NCBI GenBank assembly: GCA_009914755.4
Contig: CP068257.2
Span: forward strand, 43,136,001-43,200,000
Direction of reading: 5' to 3'
DNA length: 64,000 bases
Origin: the human T2T-CHM13v2.0 reference genome, Homo sapiens
The position numbers were made by a program, and so were the translations under genes. The notes under the pieces were generated by a model that saw only the letters and a list, made by a program, of their open reading frames with translations, had not been told where the DNA came from and did not search any database. Below, one piece after another: positions 30,120-61,300 of the stretch (its first letter is position 1; the number at the start of each line of letters is the position of its first letter).

Positions 30120-31218
30120 ACAATAGGCAGAACTATGAAAATGTTTAATTGGTATAGATCCCAAAATATTTCACAGAACTGAAATCACCAGACTAATGCA
30201 TAAATTCAATACCTATTTGGAAAGCAGCACGGCACAAACCCACGAGAAGAACATGAAGTCATCATTCCATGGGTTCATTTGTAACCACACTTGGAAGTAG
30301 CTCTTATACACGACAACATAACTGCAAATTCAGCAATACTTAGTCTTACTTTTTTATGTATAGACCATAATCATTCATCAGAAGCAAATACTAGAAGAAA
30401 TCTGAGGCCACAACACCATTACCAAATGAGAAATGTGGGAATTTCTTCAATATTAAGAGGGAGAAAAAGGCCAATTTTGGTTGTGCCAATCCTTGCCTGT
30501 GTACCAACGCCAGGTACTGAGCAGGGAGTGGGGTGGGAGGGGTGGCAGGGGGGTGGGTCCTGGGCCTCAGACCCCGAGGTTACATGCTTGAGGGCCAGAG
30601 AGCACGTGGGGTCAAATTACCAAAAGACTCGGTTATTTTTTAACCTTTGAAGAAGCATTCCAGTATTTTCCCTTCAACTTTTCCATATACTGACAAAGCT
30701 TAAATTTGCAATATTTAGCATTTTAATCACCTGTGCCTGTAACAGCAAGTGACAGTCTGTCCTCCCTACCAACCTTGCCCCCAATACCTGTCCAACAGCT
30801 GCATCCCCACTGCGGGAAACACCAATTCTCTATGTGACTGGAGTGAGCAGGGGAGAGGCAACCAACTCAGGAGTCAGATCCCTGGCCAGACTAAAAGCGA
30901 ACATTCAGGCTATAATTTTGGGGTTAAAAAAATGTTGTAGGAGGGGGGGAAAACACAAATGAGCACACAAAAGTACCCACAATATCTTGCAACTCATTTT
31001 ACCTGAACAAAGATAACAATTCTGATTGGCCCAATTTAAGTTACAGATTCATCCCTGCAGATATAGTTTTGAGTTGCACTTGAAGTACATCAAAGAGAGG
31101 AAAATCATCGTGGTGAATGTCCTCGAGTTTCCGCAGACACCTTTGTGGTCGGCATGGTCACGTGCTCACCATTCAACAGCAATGCGAGGATGGACGGCCC
31201 GGGCTGGGGACGGGCCCT
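30120..31218 (-). other. SUMO3: SUMO3 3' UTR. The end is approximate. A candidate poly(A) signal ATTAAA lies at the revcomp of 30144-30149, with alternatives near 30722-30727.
   Basis: It is contiguous with the stop codon. No canonical AATAAA was found on the minus strand between 29.8 and 31.2 kb, only ATTAAA variants. The 3' end cannot be fixed without cDNA evidence. Confidence 0.4.
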
Positions 31219-42397: not shown

Positions 42398-42418
42398 CTT
42401 GGGCTTCTCCTCGGACAT
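42398..42418 (-). CDS. SUMO3: SUMO3 coding exon 1 (ATGTCCGAGGAGAAGCCCAAG, encoding MSEEKPK). The 5'UTR extends about 80-150 nt upstream to roughly 42500-42560.
   Basis: The revcomp of 42392-42418 is ATGTCCGAGGAGAAGCCCAAG|GTAAGC. The ORF-track entry 42155..42550(-) contains AAMSEEKPK. The exon lies within the CpG island. Confidence 0.92.
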
Positions 42419-47760: not shown

Positions 47761-48441
47761 CATGCAAGAAGCTGCCTTTCTTTTAGTTCCTAAGCAGATA
47801 GCTAGAGATAAAAGGTTAAACATCACCACAAGTAGCTGCTCTAAGTTCACCTTATCTTATGGAAAGTGCCAATTTGCTGGGCATAAGATGAATACACAAT
47901 TGACTCCTCCCCACCGGCTCCTTTTCTCTTGCACCATGTACATTCAGTCATGTGACCACACCCTTCCTCTTTCCCCTCTAGCCCACTTTTCCTCTTTAAA
48001 TACTGAAGCCCTCAGAGTCATCTTTGGAGAAAGGCACAGACCACAGGCTGTTTCTGTGATTCCATGCTTTTTTCTCCCAGGAGTTGTTCTTAACCTTGGC
48101 AAAGTAAACTTCTAAATTGATTGAGACCTGTCTCAGATACTTTTTGGTTTGCAGAATTAACTGCCAGAAAGCATACACTAAAATAAATACTAAAAGGATT
48201 TCTTCAGCAGAGGGAAAGTGGCCCTGGACGGAAGTATGAAGTACAGGAAGGAATGAAGAACAATAAAAAGCCTGCATATCTGGGTAAATCTAAATAGACA
48301 ATGACTGCATAGAACAACAATAATAATGTCTTCTGGAGTTCTAAATAGATGTGGAATTAGAAGAAGTGATAATGACAGCACGAGGCAGGAGGAATTAACG
48401 TGTTCTAGGGTTGTTGCAGTATCTAAAAAGTGGTAAAGGGG

Positions 48442-50675
48442 GTTCTAGCAGGTGAGGGATGTCTGAGCTGAAGCCTGAGGATAAAGAAGAGCCTGCCGCT
48501 CTCCCTCTCCCTCTCCCCACGGTCTCCCTCTCCCCACGGTCTCCCTCTCCCCCTCTTTCCACGGTCTCCCTCTGATGCCGAGCCGAAGCTGGACTGTACT
48601 GCTGCCATCTCGGCTCACTGCAACCTCCCTGCCTGATTCTCCTGCCTCAGTCTGCCGAGTGCCTGCGATTGCAGGCCCGCGCCGCCACGCCTGACTGGTT
48701 TTCGTATTTTTTTGGTGGAGACGGGGTTTCGCTGTGTTGGCGGGGCTGGCCTCCAGCTCCTAACCGCAAGTGATCCGCCAGCCTCGGCCTCCGGAGGTGC
48801 CGGGATTGCAGACGGTGTCTGGTTCACTCAGTGCTCAATGGTGCCCAGGCTGGAGTGCAGTGGCGTGATCTCGGCTTGCTACAACCTCCACCTCCCAGCC
48901 GCCTGCCTTGGCCTCCCAAAGTGCCGAGAGTGCAGCCTCTGCCCGGCCGCCACCCCGTCTGGGAAGTGAGGAGCGTCTCTGCCTGGCCGCCTATCGTCTG
49001 GGACGTGAGGAGCCCCTCTGCCTGGCTGCCCAGTCTGGAAAGTGAGGAGTGTCTCTGTCCGGCCGCCATCCCATCTAGGAAGTGAGGAGCGCCTCTTCCC
49101 GGCCGCCATCCCATCTAGGAAGTGAGGAGCGTCTCTGCCCGGCCGCCCATATTCTGAGATGTGGGGAGCGCCTTTGCCCCGCCGCCCTGTCTGGGATGTG
49201 AGGAGCGCCTCTGCCCGGCCGCGACCCCGTCTGGGAGGTGAGGAGCGTCTCTGCCCAGCCGCCCTGTCTGAGAAGGGAGGAGACCCTCCGCCTGGCAACC
49301 GCCCCGTCTGAGAAGTGAGGAGCCCCTCCGCCCGGCAGCCGCCCCGTCTGGGAAGTGAGGAGCATCTCCGCCAGGCAGCCACCCCGTCCGGGAGGGAGGT
49401 GGGGGTCAGCCCCCGCCAGGCCAGCCGCCCGGTCCGGGAGGTGAGGGGCGCCTCTGCCCAGCCGCCCCTACTGGGAAGTGAAGAGCCCCTCTACCCGGCC
49501 AGCCGCTCCGTCCGGGAGGGAGGTGGGGGGGTCAGCCCCCCGCCCGGCCAGCCACCTCGTCCGGGAGGTGAGGGGCGCCTCTGCCTGGCCGCCCCTACTG
49601 GGAAGTGAGGAGCCCCTCTGCCCGGCCAGCCGCCCCGTCCGGGAGGGAGGTGGGGGGTTCAGCCACCCGCCCGGCCAGCCGCCCCGTCTGGGAGGTGAGG
49701 GGCGCCTCTGCCCGGCCAGCCACCCCGTCTGGGAGGGAGGTGGGGGGGTCAGCCCCCCGCCCGGCCAGCCGCCCCATCCGGGAGGGAGGTGGGGGGGTCA
49801 GCCCCCCGCCCGGCCAGCCGCCCCGTCCGGGAGGGAGGTGGGGGGGTCAGCCCCCCGCCCGGCCAGCCGCCTCGTCTGGGAGGGATGTCGGGGGGTCAGC
49901 CCCCCGCCCAGCCAGCCACCTCGTCCGGGAGGTGAGGGGCGCCTCTGCCTGGCCGCCCCTACTGGGAAGTGAGGAGCCCCTCTGCCCGGCCAGCCGCCCC
50001 GTCCGGGAGGGAGGTGGGGGGGTCAGCCCCCCGCCCGGCCAGCCGCCTCGTCCGGGAGGTGAGGGGCGCCTCTGCCTGGCCGCCCCTACTGGGAAATGAG
50101 GAGCTCCTCTGCCCGGCCACCACCCCGTCTGGGAGGTGTACCCAACAGCTCATTGAGAACGGGCCATGATGACAATGGCGGTTTTGTGGAATAGAAAGGG
50201 GGGAAAGGTGGGGAAAAGATTGAGAAATCAGATGGTTGCCGTGTCTGTGTGGAAAGAAGTAGACATGGGAGACTTTTCATTTTGTTCTGTACTAAGAAAA
50301 ATTCTTCTGCCTTGGGATCCTGTTGATCTGTGACCTTACCCCCAACCCTGTGCTCTCTGAAACATGTGCTGTGTCCACTCAGGGTTAAATGGATTAAGGG
50401 CGGTGCAAGATGTGCTTTGTTAAACAGATGCTTGAAGGCAGCATGCTCGTTAAGAGTCATCACCACTCCCTAATCTCAAGTACCTAGGGACACAAACACT
50501 GCGGAAGGCTGCAGGGTCCTCTGCCTAGGAAAACCAGAGACCTTTGTTCACTTGTTTATCTGCTGACCTTCCCTCCACTATTGTCCTATGACCCTGCCAA
50601 ATCCCCGTCTGTGAGAAACACTCAAGAATGATCAATAAAAATAAATAATTAATTAATTAATTAATTAATTAATTA
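48442..50675 (+). mobile_element. Full-length SVA retrotransposon (hominid-specific composite). Its parts are a 56-bp 5' extension at 48442-48497, the (CCCTCT)n hexamer array at 48498-48565, the Alu-like region at 48566-48940, the GC-rich VNTR at 48941-50130, the SINE-R (HERV-K derived) at 50131-50636, and a poly(A)-derived (TTAA)n tail at 50637-50675. It is flanked by a 17-bp target-site duplication AAAAAGTGGTAAAGGGG.
   Basis: The hexamer array and the Alu-like segment (tgatgccgagccgaagctggactgtactgctgccatctcggctcactgcaacctccctgcctgattctcctgcctcag) match SVA. The VNTR units (gccgccccgtctgggaagtgaggagcgcctctgcccggcc, about 35-50 bp) and the SINE-R (gggatcctgttgatctgtgaccttacccccaaccctgtgctctctgaaacatgtgctgtgtccactcagggttaaatggattaagggcggtgcaagatgtgc...) are also SVA parts. 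Identical 17-mers occur at 48425-48441 and 50676-50692. Confidence 0.9.
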
Positions 50676-50854
50676 AAAAAAGTGGTAAAGGGGAGGACAG
50701 ACAAGTTTAAGTTATTTTCAGAAATGCAAATATTCACTGGGTTTTCCATCCACGGATCCTCACTGAAAGAATCATCATGGATTCACTGCAGCAAAATGCA
50801 GATGGAACTCATGACAGGGACATTCAAGCAGGATCAGTGTGTGCTGTTGAGTGG

Positions 50855-53700: not shown

Positions 53701-54775
53701 TACATTCTTACTGAAGACAACGGAAAGCTCTGGATAACACATAAAAAAGTATCTGAGGACTCGGGAAAGTTAACAGTAGGAAGCAAATTAGGGAATGAGA
53801 CTGAAACACAAAGAAAAAGCTGGTGAGTGATCCCAAGTATTTTTCGTCTTTCATCACCCAGCTTAGACCGCAGGCTGACCCCCGTGTGGAACTGCACAAC
53901 ATGTGTGGACAGAAAAAACTACAAAAGAAATTGTTTTTTTTCTGGCCAGAGGAAAAGAGACCCTGCAAGCCAAAGCATGTGGATTGAATTCAGATTTTTT
54001 GTTTGGTTTGGTTTTTCACTTTTTTAATCTTTCCCAGCCCTCTCCCAAGAGTGTCCCGTCATAGCGCTGCACTAGGGTGGCAGAATGGACCCCAAACCTC
54101 AAGAGAAATACACATTTTCTGGCCACAGACCCTAGAAGAAAGGAGCCTTGTGATCCAAAGAGCATTAGGGAAGTTCCTGTTATTTTCCCCTCTCTTTTCT
54201 CTTGCTGCTTAGTCCATGGGCAACGTCCCTGAAACTGTGGTGGAGTATGGGTGGTTAAAGTTCCCAGAGAAATCCCTTCCTTGTAACCAGAGGACTGGTA
54301 AAGGGGGCTCTTGGGGGCTGGTGAATGTGGTAGAAATCTCAGCAAGGAGAGAATTGAAGACAGGGGTCCCCTGACTCTGTGAATGAATCAACCCTGAGCT
54401 GGGCATGGTGAGGCAATTCAAAGCAACATAGCAACAGCTTTGAGAAAGAACTGAGAGTGAAATCTTGGCCCCTGGGAGGTGGGACAGAGCTCGCATTCTG
54501 AAACTGACAGGACAGGGTGCTTGACAAAACAAAAAGAAAAAAATCATCATCCTCCAAAGGATTTTAACAGGACCCAGAGTCTCACAGCATATCAAAGTGG
54601 CCAGTATAAGATTTAGTTACTTGGTATACAAAGAACAAGGAAAATGTGATTAATTCTCAAGGGAAATGACACCAACATATGTCAACCCAAAATGATGTGG
54701 GTGTTAAGATCACCAGACAAAAACTTTTGCTGGTTGCTTTTTGTTGCTGTTTGAATTTTTTTAGAGATGGTGTTA

Positions 54776-55460
54776 CCAGTGGAGGGTGTCCAGGTTCTTG
54801 GCGTTTTGAACAATGAATTGGATGAAGCACACAAAGCAAGGAAAGAATGGAGTGACAAAAGCAGAGACTTATTGCAAATGAAAGTACACTCCACATGGTG
54901 GGAGCCGCTGGAGAATAACGGCTCAAGACCCCTTACAGAATTCTCAGGGGTTTTGATACCCTCTAGAGACTTCCCATTGGTTACTTGGTGTCCATCCTAT
55001 GTAAATGAAGTAGTGGCCTGCAAACATTCTGATTGGTTGTGGAAAGCAACCAATCAGAGGCTGAAGTGAAGTTACAAAGATTACGCCCTATGCAAGTGTA
55101 TGATTGGTTGCGGAAAGCAACCAGTCAGAGGCTAAAGTGAAATTACAAAGTTACGCTTCTATGCAAACAAAGACTTGGCCTGCAATCAGTCTGATTGGTT
55201 GCCAATCAGAGGCTGAAGTGAAGTTACAAAGTTACACTCCTATGCAAACGTCTGATTGGTTGCAGGAAGCAACCAAGCAGAGATACCTTCAATTTTCCAT
55301 CTGCCACACCCAAAAGGGGTGGGGGTGGGGGTGGGGGTGGGGGTGGGGGGATTTGCAAAGGCAGCCTCCAGTTCTTTTGTTACTTAGGTGTGGAAAGTTG
55401 GGGTTTTCCTTCTGATTTAGTTCTAGGAAGTCAGCATGAATTGGCCTTTAGGTTCCCTGC
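54776..55460 (-). mobile_element. Solo LTR12-family (HERV9) LTR in minus orientation. The U5/R end is at 54776. The U3 region at 55000-55330 carries tandem repeats of about 62 bp, each with an inverted pair of CCAAT boxes, followed by a (GGGGT)n tract.
   Basis: The revcomp of 54776-54960 reads ...CTCCAGCGGCTCCCACCATGTGGAGTGTACTTTCATTTGCAATAAGTCTCTGCTTTTGTCACTCCATTCTTTCCTTGCTTTGTGTGCTTCATCCAATTCATTGTTCAAAACGCCAAGAACCTGGACACCCTCCACTGGTAACA, which is the LTR12 3' terminus. The repeats read tctgattggttg(c/t)ggaaagcaaccaatcagaggctgaagtgaagttacaaag four times. The upper boundary is approximate because an Alu fragment follows at 55487. Confidence 0.75.
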
Positions 55461-55486
55461 TTCCAGACCCTATTCTCCTGTCTCAC

Positions 55487-55631
55487 CGGGGTCTTGCTCC
55501 GTGGCCCTGGCTGGAGTGCAGTGGCAAAATCATAGCTTGCTGCAGCCTCGAACTCCTGGGCTCAAAGCGATTCTCCCGCCTCAGGCTTCCAAGTCACTGG
55601 GACTACAGGCGTGTGCCACCGCACCCAGCTC
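55487..55631 (-). mobile_element. Alu 3'-half fragment (minus).
   Basis: The sequence is ggggtcttgctccgtggccctggctggagtgcagtggcaaaatcatagcttgctgcagcctcgaactcctgggctcaaagcgattctcccgcctcaggcttccaagtcactgggactacaggcgtgtgccaccgcacccagct. Confidence 0.85.
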
Positions 55632-60680: not shown

Positions 60681-61300
60681 CTGCAGCCCCCACCCCTCCC
60701 CAACCTTACCCCACCCCTGCAGCCCCCACCCCACCCCACCCCTGCAGCCCCCACCCCACCCCGTCCCCACCCCACCCCACCCCACCCGTGCAGCCCCCAC
60801 CACACCCCTGACCCCACCCCACCCCTGCAGCCCCCACCCCACCCCATCCCCACCCTACCCCTGCAGCCCCCACCCCACCCCACCCCTGCAGCCCCCACCC
60901 CACCCCGTCCCCACCCCACCCCACCCCACCCCTGCAGCCCCCACCACACCCCTGACCCCACCCCACCCCTGCAGCCCCCACCCCACCCCATCCCCACCCC
61001 ACCCCACCTCTGCAGCCCCCACCCCACCCCTGTCCCCACCCCACCCCACCCCTGCAGCCCCCACCCCACCCCTGTCCCCACCCCACCCCACCTCTGCAGC
61101 CCCCACCCCACCCCTGTCCCCACCCCACCCCACCTCTGCAGCCCCCACCCCACCCCTGTCCCCACCCCACCCCACCTCTGCAGCCCCCACCCCACCCCTG
61201 TCCCCACCCCACCCCACCCCTGCAGCCCCCACCCCACCCCATCCCCACCCCACCCCACCCCTGCAGCCCCCACCCCACCCCTGTCCCCACCCCTGTCCCA
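60681..61300. repeat. C-rich (plus strand) minisatellite with a unit of about 42 bp in about 15 copies (ctgcagcccccaccccacccctgtccccaccccaccccacc). The complementary strand is (GGGGTGGGG)n rich.
   Basis: The sequence is strictly periodic with CTGCAG punctuation. It explains the spurious ORFs of 232-318 aa at 60589..61488(+), 60614..61570(-), 60675..61373(+) and 60706..61290(-). Confidence 0.92.

What the first reader, a model, noticed from the sequence alone, without database searches (positions are those of the whole stretch)
54776..55460. Solo LTR12 (HERV9) with four tandem roughly 62-bp units, each carrying a perfect inverted CCAAT-box pair
Each U3 repeat is tctgattggttgYggaaagcaaccaatcagaggctgaagtgaagttacaaag. 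The sequence GATTGG...CCAATCAG is a palindromic NF-Y double site. Both boxes have the flanking CAG and the 27-bp spacing typical of cooperative NF-Y binding. A (GGGGT)n run at 55313-55345 with Sp1 and G4 potential follows the repeats. LTR12 U3 repeats are known NF-Y/Sp1-dependent cryptic promoters that become active under HDAC inhibition and in germ cells. This LTR sits in the SUMO3 to PTTG1IP intergenic region, about 12 kb upstream of the SUMO3 TSS, in the same transcriptional orientation as SUMO3. It could drive read-in or alternative-TSS transcripts.
Basis: partly seen in the sequence, partly recalled or inferred. Interest (0 to 1): 0.5.

Follow-up and report, generated by a model that had tools for sequence, protein, structure and literature searches.

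The report
MER51-type solo LTR, not LTR12
This is an old, decayed solo retroviral LTR of the MER51/HERV4 family (not LTR12/HERV9) whose inherited enhancer repeats carry back-to-back CCAAT boxes; this family is already known to bind NF-Y, so the finding is ordinary.

Summary
There is a 715-bp solo LTR at window 54771-55485, about 12.3 kb upstream of the SUMO3 start codon. It is inserted in an Alu right arm with a 4-bp target duplication. Its sense strand is the minus strand, the same as SUMO3.

It has four repeat units with inverted CCAAT boxes, but the details differ from the finding:
- Unit spacing is 71, 91 and 61 bp, not about 62.
- Only two of four inverted pairs are intact, and one of those has a 10-bp deletion.
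- The box offset is 18 bp, not 27.
- The G-run is (GGGGGT)n and is a locus-specific expansion.

It is not LTR12. Every published LTR12 hallmark tested is absent, and a genuine LTR12 copy shares only 30 nt around the poly(A) signal.

Seventeen related copies were recovered. Some are proviral and adjoin the published HERV4 (MER51-int) consensus on both sides. They also carry a tRNA-Arg primer-binding site and the HERV4 env motif. A SOX2 motif sits where it is reported in MER51A.

MER51A/E are already known NF-Y-bound, mostly enhancer-like elements. The TATA box and poly(A) signal of this copy are mutated. It is a known element type of low interest.

The parts
54771..55485 (-). Solo LTR of the MER51 group (LTR of HERV4/MER51-int), 715 bp. 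On the sense (minus) strand it runs TGAGACAGG...CTGGTAACA.
   Evidence: It is 69-83% identical over its full length to 17 independent copies. Proviral copies adjoin the HERV4 consensus on both sides. It differs by 12.6% from the mixed family consensus.
54767..54770 (.). Target-site duplication, copy 1 (+ strand ATGG).
   Evidence: The joined flanks align colinearly with an Alu right arm. The alignment is gapless at the junction only when one 4-bp copy is removed. The inferred original is ACGG, and this copy shows a CpG-decay change.
55486..55489 (.). Target-site duplication, copy 2 (+ strand CCGG).
   Evidence: It matches copy 1 at 2 of 4 positions. The duplication is supported mainly by the continuity of the Alu.
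55490..55631 (-). Upstream part of the host Alu right arm (a 5'-truncated Alu or a free right monomer) that the LTR split.
   Evidence: Alignment to positions 134-276 of an AluY-like reference.
54731..54766 (-). Downstream part of the split Alu: its last bases and A-rich tail.
55028..55282 (-). U3 enhancer repeat array of four units that start at 55028, 55099, 55190 and 55251 on the + strand. Each unit ancestrally had an ATTGG-13 bp-CCAAT inverted pair. All four sense-strand CCAAT boxes are intact (55259, 55198, 55107, 55036). Only two antisense partners are intact (55050, 55202).
   Evidence: The 18-bp offset is found in 28 of 30 arm pairs across the family copies.
55316..55350 (+). (GGGGGT)n microsatellite with six G-runs of 4-6 bases. 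On the LTR sense strand it reads (ACCCCC)n. It has G-quadruplex potential on the + strand.
   Evidence: The other family copies have only GCAAACCCCCACC or similar at this position, so the expansion is specific to this locus.
54976..54980 (-). Promoter-proximal CCAAT box (sense GTAACCAATGGGAA), about 20-30 nt upstream of the TATA position.
   Evidence: It is conserved in nearly all family copies.
54947..54961 (-). Degenerate TATA box: GGGTATCAAAACCCC here against GGGTATTTAAACCCC in the family consensus.
54868..54874 (-). Degenerate poly(A) signal: CAATAAG here against CAATAAA in the family consensus.
   Evidence: This is the only stretch with marginal similarity to LTR12.
54809..54815 (-). SOX core motif CATTGTT in U5, starting 45 nt from the LTR 3' end. 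The family consensus has CTTTGTT here.
   Evidence: The position corresponds to the SOX2 motif reported at 587-599 of the 634-bp MER51A consensus (PMC13063735).
55421..55429 (-). GAS-like TTCCTAGAA, starting 10 bp 3' of the distal CCAAT box at 55440-55444. It is conserved in the family.
   Evidence: This is a motif match only; function was not tested.

Best explanation
WHAT IT IS. The segment is a solo LTR left by an ancient HERV4 (MER51-int) gammaretrovirus-like provirus. It belongs to the MER51 group of LTRs; the subfamily is not resolved. It inserted into an Alu right arm, made a 4-bp target duplication, and later lost its internal part by LTR-LTR recombination. It has since diverged by about 12%.

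THE REPEATS. The four repeats are the ancestral U3 enhancer of this virus family. Each unit originally held two optimal NF-Y sites (RRCCAATCAG) in back-to-back orientation with an 18-bp offset. Units come in a 71-bp and a 91-bp form.

INFERRED MECHANISM.
- NF-Y trimers bind the intact boxes: four sense boxes, two antisense boxes, and one promoter-proximal box.
- By published contact limits (-7 to +17 around the first C of CCAAT), two NF-Y trimers on one 18-bp pair would just abut. This is the same one-position overlap as the 24-bp tandem minimum seen in LTR12. Double occupancy is therefore possible in unit 1 only.
- At this locus the element most likely acts as NF-Y-bound chromatin without activity, or as a weak distal enhancer-like element.
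- It is unlikely to act as a promoter, because its TATA box (TATTTAAA to TATCAAAA) and its poly(A) signal (AATAAA to AATAAG) are mutated.

THE G-RUN. It is a locus-specific microsatellite expansion of a short CCCCCACC seed. It is not a family feature.
For: SHOWN
- Limits, TG...CA ends, split Alu and 4-bp duplication.
- Seventeen related copies, at 69-83% identity to the window element, from human-contaminated metagenome contigs.
- Orientation follows from the consensus TATA box GGGTATTTAAACCCC and poly(A) signal CAATAAA.
- The 3' LTRs of L003, L006 and L010 are preceded by sequence 78-84% identical to the very end of the published HERV4 consensus.
- The 5' LTRs of L007 and L016 are followed by its leader. 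The consensus itself starts with the U3 of this LTR.
- The primer-binding site is TGGTGAGCCAGCCAGGAG or TGGCAAGCCAGCCAGGAG, which is tRNA-Arg(ACG). This matches 'HERV4 PBS: R'.
- The env motif [23 protein letters not shown] matches the HERV4 motif [23 protein letters not shown].
- The Vargiu et al. supplement states that the LTRs of HERV4 are MER51A/MER51B or MER61D.
- The SOX2 core CTTTGT starts 45 nt from the LTR end, which is position 590 of the 634-bp MER51A consensus.
- The 18-bp inverted-pair geometry is found in 28 of 30 pairs across copies.

FROM THE LITERATURE
- MER51A/E are enriched in NF-Y ChIP-seq and lie mostly in enhancer-like elements (PMC3730095, PMC12065363, PMC5529029).
- NF-Y contact limits come from PMC4982600.
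Against: - No direct alignment to a Dfam or Repbase MER51 consensus was possible. The subfamily, and even MER51 versus the other LTRs linked to HERV4 (MER61D, HERV4_LTR), rests on indirect evidence.
- The two copies of the target duplication agree at only 2 of 4 positions.
- NF-Y occupancy, chromatin state and transcription at this copy were not testable here. Published figures say only about 5-20% of MER copies are bound.
- The back-to-back co-occupancy argument is arithmetic on published contact limits, not a measurement.
Confidence: 0.82

Rival explanations
1. It is a solo LTR12 (HERV9) whose U3 E-repeats act as an NF-Y/Sp1-dependent cryptic promoter inducible by HDAC inhibitors.
For: It has multiple CCAATCAG boxes and is an ERV1 LTR with a tRNA-Arg family relationship. 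A 30-nt stretch around the poly(A) signal resembles LTR12 (25/30 identical, E 0.013).
Against: The hallmarks below are those listed in PMC11853044.
- The GCCAGCAGTGGC start-site repeat, the AATAAAA box, the GATA motif TCTGTATCTAGCT and GTGGGGA are all absent on both strands. The two longer motifs were allowed up to 2 mismatches; the two 7-mers were searched exactly.
- The repeat period is 71/91/61 bp with 4 units, not about 41 nt with 5-17 units.
- U5 has no 72-bp repeats.
- There is no alignment to the genuine LTR12 3' part in L019 beyond the 30 nt.
- Proviral relatives adjoin HERV4, not HERV9.
Confidence: 0.02
2. It belongs to another LTR family used by HERV4-type proviruses (MER61D or HERV4_LTR), or to an undescribed relative, and not to MER51A-E.
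For: The Vargiu supplement and the Repbase table list MER61D and HERV4_LTR beside MER51A-E as LTRs of HERV4/MER51-int. No labelled LTR consensus could be aligned in full.
Against: - The SOX2 core motif sits at the position reported for MER51A and is said to be shared by MER51B/C/E.
- The CCAAT richness fits the NF-Y-bound MER51A/E.
- The start of the HERV4 consensus matches this LTR.
- Several length variants were recovered, as expected for a family with subfamilies A-E.
Confidence: 0.1
3. It is a MER57 LTR, the other NF-Y-bound 'MER' group.
For: - MER57 is also NF-Y-bound.
- The published MER57B1 module order is CCAAT, then a STAT site, then a TALE site. This resembles CCAAT(55440-55444)-TTCCTAGAA-CTAAATCA at the 5' end of this LTR.
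- A MER57-type env fragment lies upstream in locus L006.
Against: - MER57 proviruses use a Leu primer-binding site and the env motif LNNRIALDYLLA. Proviral copies of this LTR have an Arg site and the HERV4 env motif.
- Those copies adjoin the HERV4 consensus at both junctions.
Confidence: 0.02
4. The LTR is an active alternative promoter that drives read-in or alternative-start transcripts of SUMO3.
For: It has the same orientation as SUMO3 and lies 12.35 kb upstream. It has a proximal CCAAT box and several intact NF-Y sites.
Against: - The TATA box and poly(A) signal have decayed in this copy.
- A full-length SVA in the opposite orientation (48499-50680) lies between the LTR and the SUMO3 CpG island.
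- Published NF-Y-bound MER51 sites are mostly enhancer-like or unmarked, and few are promoters.
- No expression data were available here.
Confidence: 0.06

Closest known systems
MER51A-E LTRs of HERV4 / MER51-int (ERV1, HERVFRD-like supergroup)
   Same: - Proviral relatives adjoin the HERV4 consensus on both sides.
- tRNA-Arg primer-binding site.
- HERV4 env immunosuppressive-domain motif.
- SOX core motif 45 nt from the 3' end (position about 590 of 634).
- Many optimal CCAAT boxes.
- Age consistent with a simian-specific family: inserted in an Alu, about 12% divergence.
   Different: - This copy has four U3 units (715 bp) against a published MER51A consensus length of 634 bp.
- It carries a 10-bp deletion in one unit, three mutated boxes, a mutated TATA box and poly(A) signal, and a private (GGGGGT)n expansion.
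- The subfamily could not be named.
LTR12 / ERV9 (HERV9) LTRs
   Same: - ERV1 LTR with repeated NF-Y sites of the CCAATCAG type in U3.
- tRNA-Arg-type provirus.
- NF-Y-bound in ChIP-seq as a family.
- Tight packing of neighbouring NF-Y sites: 24 bp in tandem in LTR12, 18 bp back to back here. Both leave a one-position overlap of the published contact limits.
   Different: - LTR12 repeats are about 41 nt, direct, in 5-17 copies, with GATA and GTGGGGA motifs.
- LTR12 has the GCCAGCAGTGGC start-site repeat, the AATAAAA box and 72-bp U5 repeats.
- None of these is present here, and the sequences do not align.
Double CCAAT-box modules of cellular promoters (31-33 bp tandem spacing, e.g. TOP2B and cell-cycle genes)
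   Same: Two high-quality NF-Y sites form one module.
   Different: The pair here is inverted (back to back) at an 18-bp offset, not tandem at three helical turns. No cooperative binding has been shown for this geometry.

Membership tests
LTR12 (HERV9 LTR) | U3 holds 5-17 tandem E repeats of about 41 nt (PMC11853044). | tested here: not met
   There are four units spaced 71, 91 and 61 bp apart. Tandem Repeats Finder gives a period of 71.
LTR12 (HERV9 LTR) | The repeats carry the GATA motif TCTGTATCTAGCT and the G-rich motif GTGGGGA beside CCAAT. | tested here: not met
   Neither motif occurs on either strand. There is also no WGATAR core.
LTR12 (HERV9 LTR) | The start site lies in GCCAGCAGTGGC (GCCANNNNTGGC), with AATAAAA about 30 nt upstream. 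| tested here: not met
   Both are absent: GCCAGCAGTGGC allowing 2 mismatches, AATAAAA by exact search. Both are present in the genuine LTR12 copy L019.
LTR12 (HERV9 LTR) | U5 holds 72-bp B repeats. | tested here: not met
   No repeat was found in 54771-54870. L019 shows them.
LTR12 (HERV9 LTR) | Sequence similarity to a genuine LTR12. | tested here: not met
   blastn against L019:1-513 finds only 25/30 nt around the poly(A) signal (E 0.013) for the window copy, and nothing for the family consensus. Only the 3' 513 nt of an LTR12 was available.
MER51 group (LTR of HERV4/MER51-int) | The LTR flanks the HERV4/MER51-int internal sequence in proviral copies. | tested here: met
   The 3' end of the HERV4 consensus aligns at 78-84% identity up to the LTR start in L010, L006 and L003. 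Its leader aligns after the LTR in L016 and L007. The consensus start aligns to this LTR.
MER51 group (LTR of HERV4/MER51-int) | Primer-binding site for tRNA-Arg (HERV4 'PBS: R'). | tested here: met
   TGGTGAGCCAGCCAGGAG (L007) and TGGCAAGCCAGCCAGGAG (L016, L018) start 6 nt after the LTR end (after TATTT). Vargiu et al. list both as R (ACG).
MER51 group (LTR of HERV4/MER51-int) | Env immunosuppressive-domain motif [23 protein letters not shown]. | tested here: met
   The env remnant of L003 reads [23 protein letters not shown].
MER51 group (LTR of HERV4/MER51-int) | SOX2 core CTTTGT at 587-599 of the 634-bp MER51A consensus, shared by MER51B/C/E. | tested here: met
   The family consensus has CTTTGTT starting 45 nt from the 3' end, which is position 590 of 634. 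The window copy has CATTGTT at 54809-54815.
MER51 group (LTR of HERV4/MER51-int) | Full-length alignment to the Dfam/Repbase MER51A-E consensus, with a subfamily call. | not testable with these tools
   No repeat library is available. Searches of paper text for consensus fragments found nothing.
Solo LTR (generic) | TG...CA termini, a target-site duplication, and no internal retroviral sequence beside it. | tested here: met
   The LTR runs TGAGAC...GTAACA. The flanks rejoin into one Alu right arm with a 4-bp duplication, of which 2 of 4 positions still agree.
Functional NF-Y site cluster | CCAAT boxes with favourable flanks (RRCCAAT[C/G][A/G][G/C]). | tested here: met
   There are three GCAACCAATCAGA-type boxes, one box with a CAT flank, one AACCAATGGG box, and two antisense CAACCAATCAGAG boxes.
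Functional NF-Y site cluster | NF-Y occupancy in cells. | not testable with these tools
   Only family-level ChIP-seq statements are available from the literature.
G-quadruplex-forming tract | At least four G-runs of 3 or more bases with short loops. | tested here: met
   Six runs of 4-6 G are separated by single T at 55316-55350. A fold with G-quadruplexes allowed is preferred, at -88.3 against -35.0 kcal/mol (RNA parameters, indicative only). Formation in vivo was not tested.

The most novel reading that the evidence does not exclude
This MER51 solo LTR has been co-opted as an NF-Y-dependent distal enhancer, or a weak upstream start site, for SUMO3. In this reading the back-to-back 18-bp CCAAT pair is a true double NF-Y module at the tightest sterically allowed packing. 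The locus-specific and possibly length-polymorphic (GGGGGT)n G-quadruplex tract would then modulate its activity.
Probability: 0.08. Interest if true: 0.35.

Novelty: already known. Interest (0 to 1): 0.12.

Why it matters
It matters little. MER51 LTRs number about 1,180 copies for MER51A alone. They are a described, simian-specific ERV1 family with published NF-Y and SOX2 binding.

The useful outcomes are three:
- A corrected annotation: MER51/HERV4, not LTR12. The HDAC-inhibitor and germ-cell promoter expectations from LTR12 should therefore not be applied to this element.
- Corrected geometry of the CCAAT modules.
- The 18-bp back-to-back CCAAT pair is an ancestral, family-wide design. It equals the minimum packing distance implied by published NF-Y contact limits. 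This is testable for anyone studying NF-Y on MER51 elements.

Tried and rejected
- A genome-contig scan for the family unit found nothing.
- A viral-contig scan for an LTR12 promoter pattern found nothing.
- Full-text searches for sequence fragments of the unit and of the family consensus gave no relevant paper.
- The NF-Y/TE paper has no supplementary files held as text.
- A protein search with the env TM remnant returned 174 hits, but none of the 120 listed carries a useful name, so it could not name the virus.
- The PDB search placed the env TM equally close to syncytin-1 and syncytin-2, which does not discriminate.
- I searched the SOX2/BRN2 TE table for estimated hg38 coordinates of this copy and found no entry. 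The coordinates came from memory, the table lists only bound elements, and the file is truncated.
- A MER57 identity was considered because of a CCAAT-STAT-TALE-like order at the 5' end. It was rejected on the primer-binding site, the env motif and the junction evidence.
- My own recalled LTR consensus sequences were used only as leads. The LTR12 comparison rests on locus L019, which carries the literature-defined LTR12 hallmarks.

Full report
LOCUS AND BOUNDARIES

The window is human.
- tblastn with the SUMO3 protein (recalled from memory) finds three coding exons on the minus strand at 38379-31222.
- The first coding exon, ATGTCCGAGGAGAAGCCCAAG, starts at 42418 inside a CpG island at 41-44 kb.
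- UBE2G2 exons lie further down the minus strand at 26016-1557.
- PTTG1IP gives no hit, so it is not in the window.

The feature is an LTR with TG...CA ends at 54771-55485 (715 bp). An earlier estimate was off by two bases and was corrected. The sequences on either side are the two halves of one Alu right arm on the minus strand. Joined, they align colinearly with an Alu. The alignment has no gap at the junction only if one copy of a 4-bp duplication is removed (ATGG and CCGG on the + strand, inferred original ACGG). This is therefore a solo LTR with the 4-bp duplication typical of gammaretrovirus-like elements. It lies 12.35 kb upstream of the SUMO3 ATG.

THE OBSERVATION

Four related units start at 55028, 55099, 55190 and 55251, so the spacing is 71, 91 and 61 bp. 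Tandem Repeats Finder reports a period of 71.
- Unit 2 has four substitutions, including CCAAT to CCAGT.
- Unit 3 has a 10-bp deletion that brings the two boxes to within 8 bp of each other.
- Unit 4 keeps only 32 nt and has CCAAG.

In intact units the ATTGG and CCAAT pentamers start 18 bp apart, not 27. The element holds nine CCAAT/ATTGG pentamers against 1.5 +/- 1.2 in shuffles. It is the densest such tile in the window. The G-run is G4-T-(G5-T)x4-G6 at 55316-55350, with a 6-nt period.

ORIENTATION AND FAMILY

One scan of metagenome contigs with a 22-nt unit core returned 18 human-contaminant contigs. Seventeen hold copies of the same LTR, at 69-83% identity, and several are full length. Their alignment gives a consensus that fixes the sense strand as the window's minus strand. 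It reads:
- TGAGGCAGGAGAATAGGG at the start;
- then one to four CCAAT-palindrome units;
- then AACCAATGGGAAAC;
- then GGGTATTTAAACCCC (TATA box);
- then TTTCAATAAATC (poly(A) signal);
- and CCACTGGTAACA at the end.

The four-unit layout of the window copy, with 71-bp and 91-bp unit types, is also found in L005 and L009. It is therefore inherited and not a local duplication. The C-run is only GCAAACCCCCACC or similar in the other copies, so the (GGGGGT)n tract is a private expansion.

NOT LTR12

A 2025 review lists the LTR12 hallmarks (PMC11853044):
- 5-17 E repeats of about 41 nt carrying CCAAT, the GATA motif TCTGTATCTAGCT and GTGGGGA;
- a start site in GCCAGCAGTGGC;
- AATAAAA about 30 nt upstream of it;
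- 72-bp repeats in U5.

None of these motifs occurs in the element on either strand; the two longer motifs were allowed up to two mismatches and the two 7-mers were searched exactly. The repeat periods do not fit either.

A pattern built from these hallmarks retrieved a genuine LTR12 3' part, L019:1-513. It shows AATAAAAGC, GCCAGCAGTGGC and the 72-bp repeats. blastn between it and the window LTR finds only 25/30 nt around the poly(A) signal (E 0.013). It finds nothing for the family consensus.

WHAT IT IS

Some of the recovered copies are proviral.
- L007, L016 and L018 have TGGTGAGCCAGCCAGGAG or TGGCAAGCCAGCCAGGAG starting 6 nt after the LTR end, after TATTT. The supplement of Vargiu et al. 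2016 lists both as tRNA-Arg(ACG) primer-binding sites.
- L003, L006 and L010 share an internal sequence and a polypurine tract just before the LTR.
- L003 encodes an env TM remnant with [23 protein letters not shown].

The same supplement prints a HERV4 consensus.
- Its last 280-350 nt align at 78-84% identity to those three upstream flanks, ending essentially at the LTR start; two of the alignments run 4 nt into the LTR because the printed consensus itself ends in ATGAG.
- Its leader aligns to the sequence after the LTR in L016 and L007.
- Its first 120 nt align to the U3 of this LTR, including the window copy.

The supplement describes HERV4 as follows: its LTRs are MER51A/MER51B or MER61D, its internal sequence is MER51-I, its primer-binding site is R, and its env motif is [23 protein letters not shown]. 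MER57 proviruses, in contrast, use a Leu site and LNNRIALDYLLA.

A 2026 paper reports the following for MER51A: 1,180 copies, a 634-bp consensus, simian specificity, and a SOX2 motif with core CTTTGT at 587-599 (PMC13063735). In the family consensus here, CTTTGTT begins 45 nt from the 3' end, which is position 590 of 634. The window copy has CATTGTT there, at 54809-54815.

The window copy differs by 12.6% from a mixed consensus. It sits inside an Alu, as does L017. Both facts fit a simian-age family.

I could not align to a Dfam consensus. The subfamily, and strictly MER51 versus MER61D or HERV4_LTR, remains inferred.

HOW IT LIKELY WORKS

Family-level ChIP-seq shows that NF-Y is enriched on MER51A/E. 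Bound MER51 sites are mostly enhancer-like, and few are promoters (PMC3730095, PMC12065363, PMC5529029).

In the window copy:
- All four sense-strand repeat boxes are intact. Three have the optimal AACCAATCAG context.
- The promoter-proximal AACCAATGGG box is intact.
- Only two antisense partners are intact.

Across copies, the sense box is intact in 30 of 35 arms and the antisense box in 21 of 33. The 18-bp offset holds in 28 of 30 pairs.

Published NF-Y contact limits are -7 to +17 from the first C of CCAAT. They give a 24-bp tandem minimum (PMC4982600). By my arithmetic on those numbers, two trimers on a back-to-back pair with an 18-bp offset both reach the same single base pair. This is the same one-position overlap as the 24-bp tandem case, so double occupancy is just possible. 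This is an inference, not a measurement. It applies only to unit 1 here; the pair in unit 3 is too close.

The TATA box (TATCAAAA) and poly(A) signal (AATAAG) of this copy are mutated. A full-length SVA in the opposite orientation lies between the LTR and the SUMO3 CpG island. I therefore rate promoter use as unlikely. NF-Y-bound but inactive chromatin, or a weak enhancer-like role, is most likely.

The G-run has clear G-quadruplex potential on the + strand, which is antisense to the LTR. It is not a family feature.

VERDICT

This is a real element whose sequence features are partly as described, but the family assignment was wrong and several numbers were wrong. It is an ordinary member of a known, already NF-Y-linked repeat family. 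Interest is low.

Noticed in passing
window 48499-50680 (+ strand): A full-length SVA retrotransposon: (CCCTCT)n at 48499-48575, an Alu-like part, a VNTR at 48935-50136, a SINE-R part, and an AATAAA plus A/T-rich tail. It is flanked by the 15-bp target duplication AAAGTGGTAAAGGGG at 48427-48441 and 50677-50691. It lies between the LTR and the SUMO3 CpG island, antisense to SUMO3.
   Followed up: partly
window 60729-61293 (C-rich on + strand, G-rich on minus strand): A minisatellite with a 42/84-bp period and about 14 copies, built from CCCCA/CCCCACCCC motifs. It gives 15 G-quadruplex-type arrays on the minus strand.
   Followed up: no
window 30471-31035: A second, smaller cluster of six CCAAT/ATTGG pentamers just downstream of the last SUMO3 coding exon. 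It includes an overlapping inverted pair, CTGATTGGCCCAAT, at 31025.
   Followed up: no
L006:1-1040: In this proviral copy the 3' end of HERV4 is preceded by an env remnant with the motif LNNRIALSYLLA. That motif is the MER57 type in Vargiu et al. It suggests a recombinant or nested provirus.
   Followed up: partly
L019:1-1210 (contig CAVXBB010000006.1, labelled an uncultured Acidobacteriaceae MAG): The first 1.2 kb of this contig, deposited as bacterial, is human: the 3' part of an LTR12 followed by an AluY. This points to human contamination in a public metagenome-assembled genome.
   Followed up: no
L007:2985-3793 and L017:437-959: Another copy of the family carries a later full-length Alu insertion inside its U3 repeats (L007). 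Another copy is itself inserted in an Alu, like the window copy (L017). Together these bracket the family's activity within the period of Alu amplification.
   Followed up: no
window 55161-55167 and 55242-55248 (minus strand): Two of the four window units contain an octamer-like TTTGCAT; every unit carries a SOX-like CTTTGT (ACTTTGTAAC). These motifs are conserved across the family. This may relate to the reported SOX2 binding of MER51 elements.
   Followed up: no
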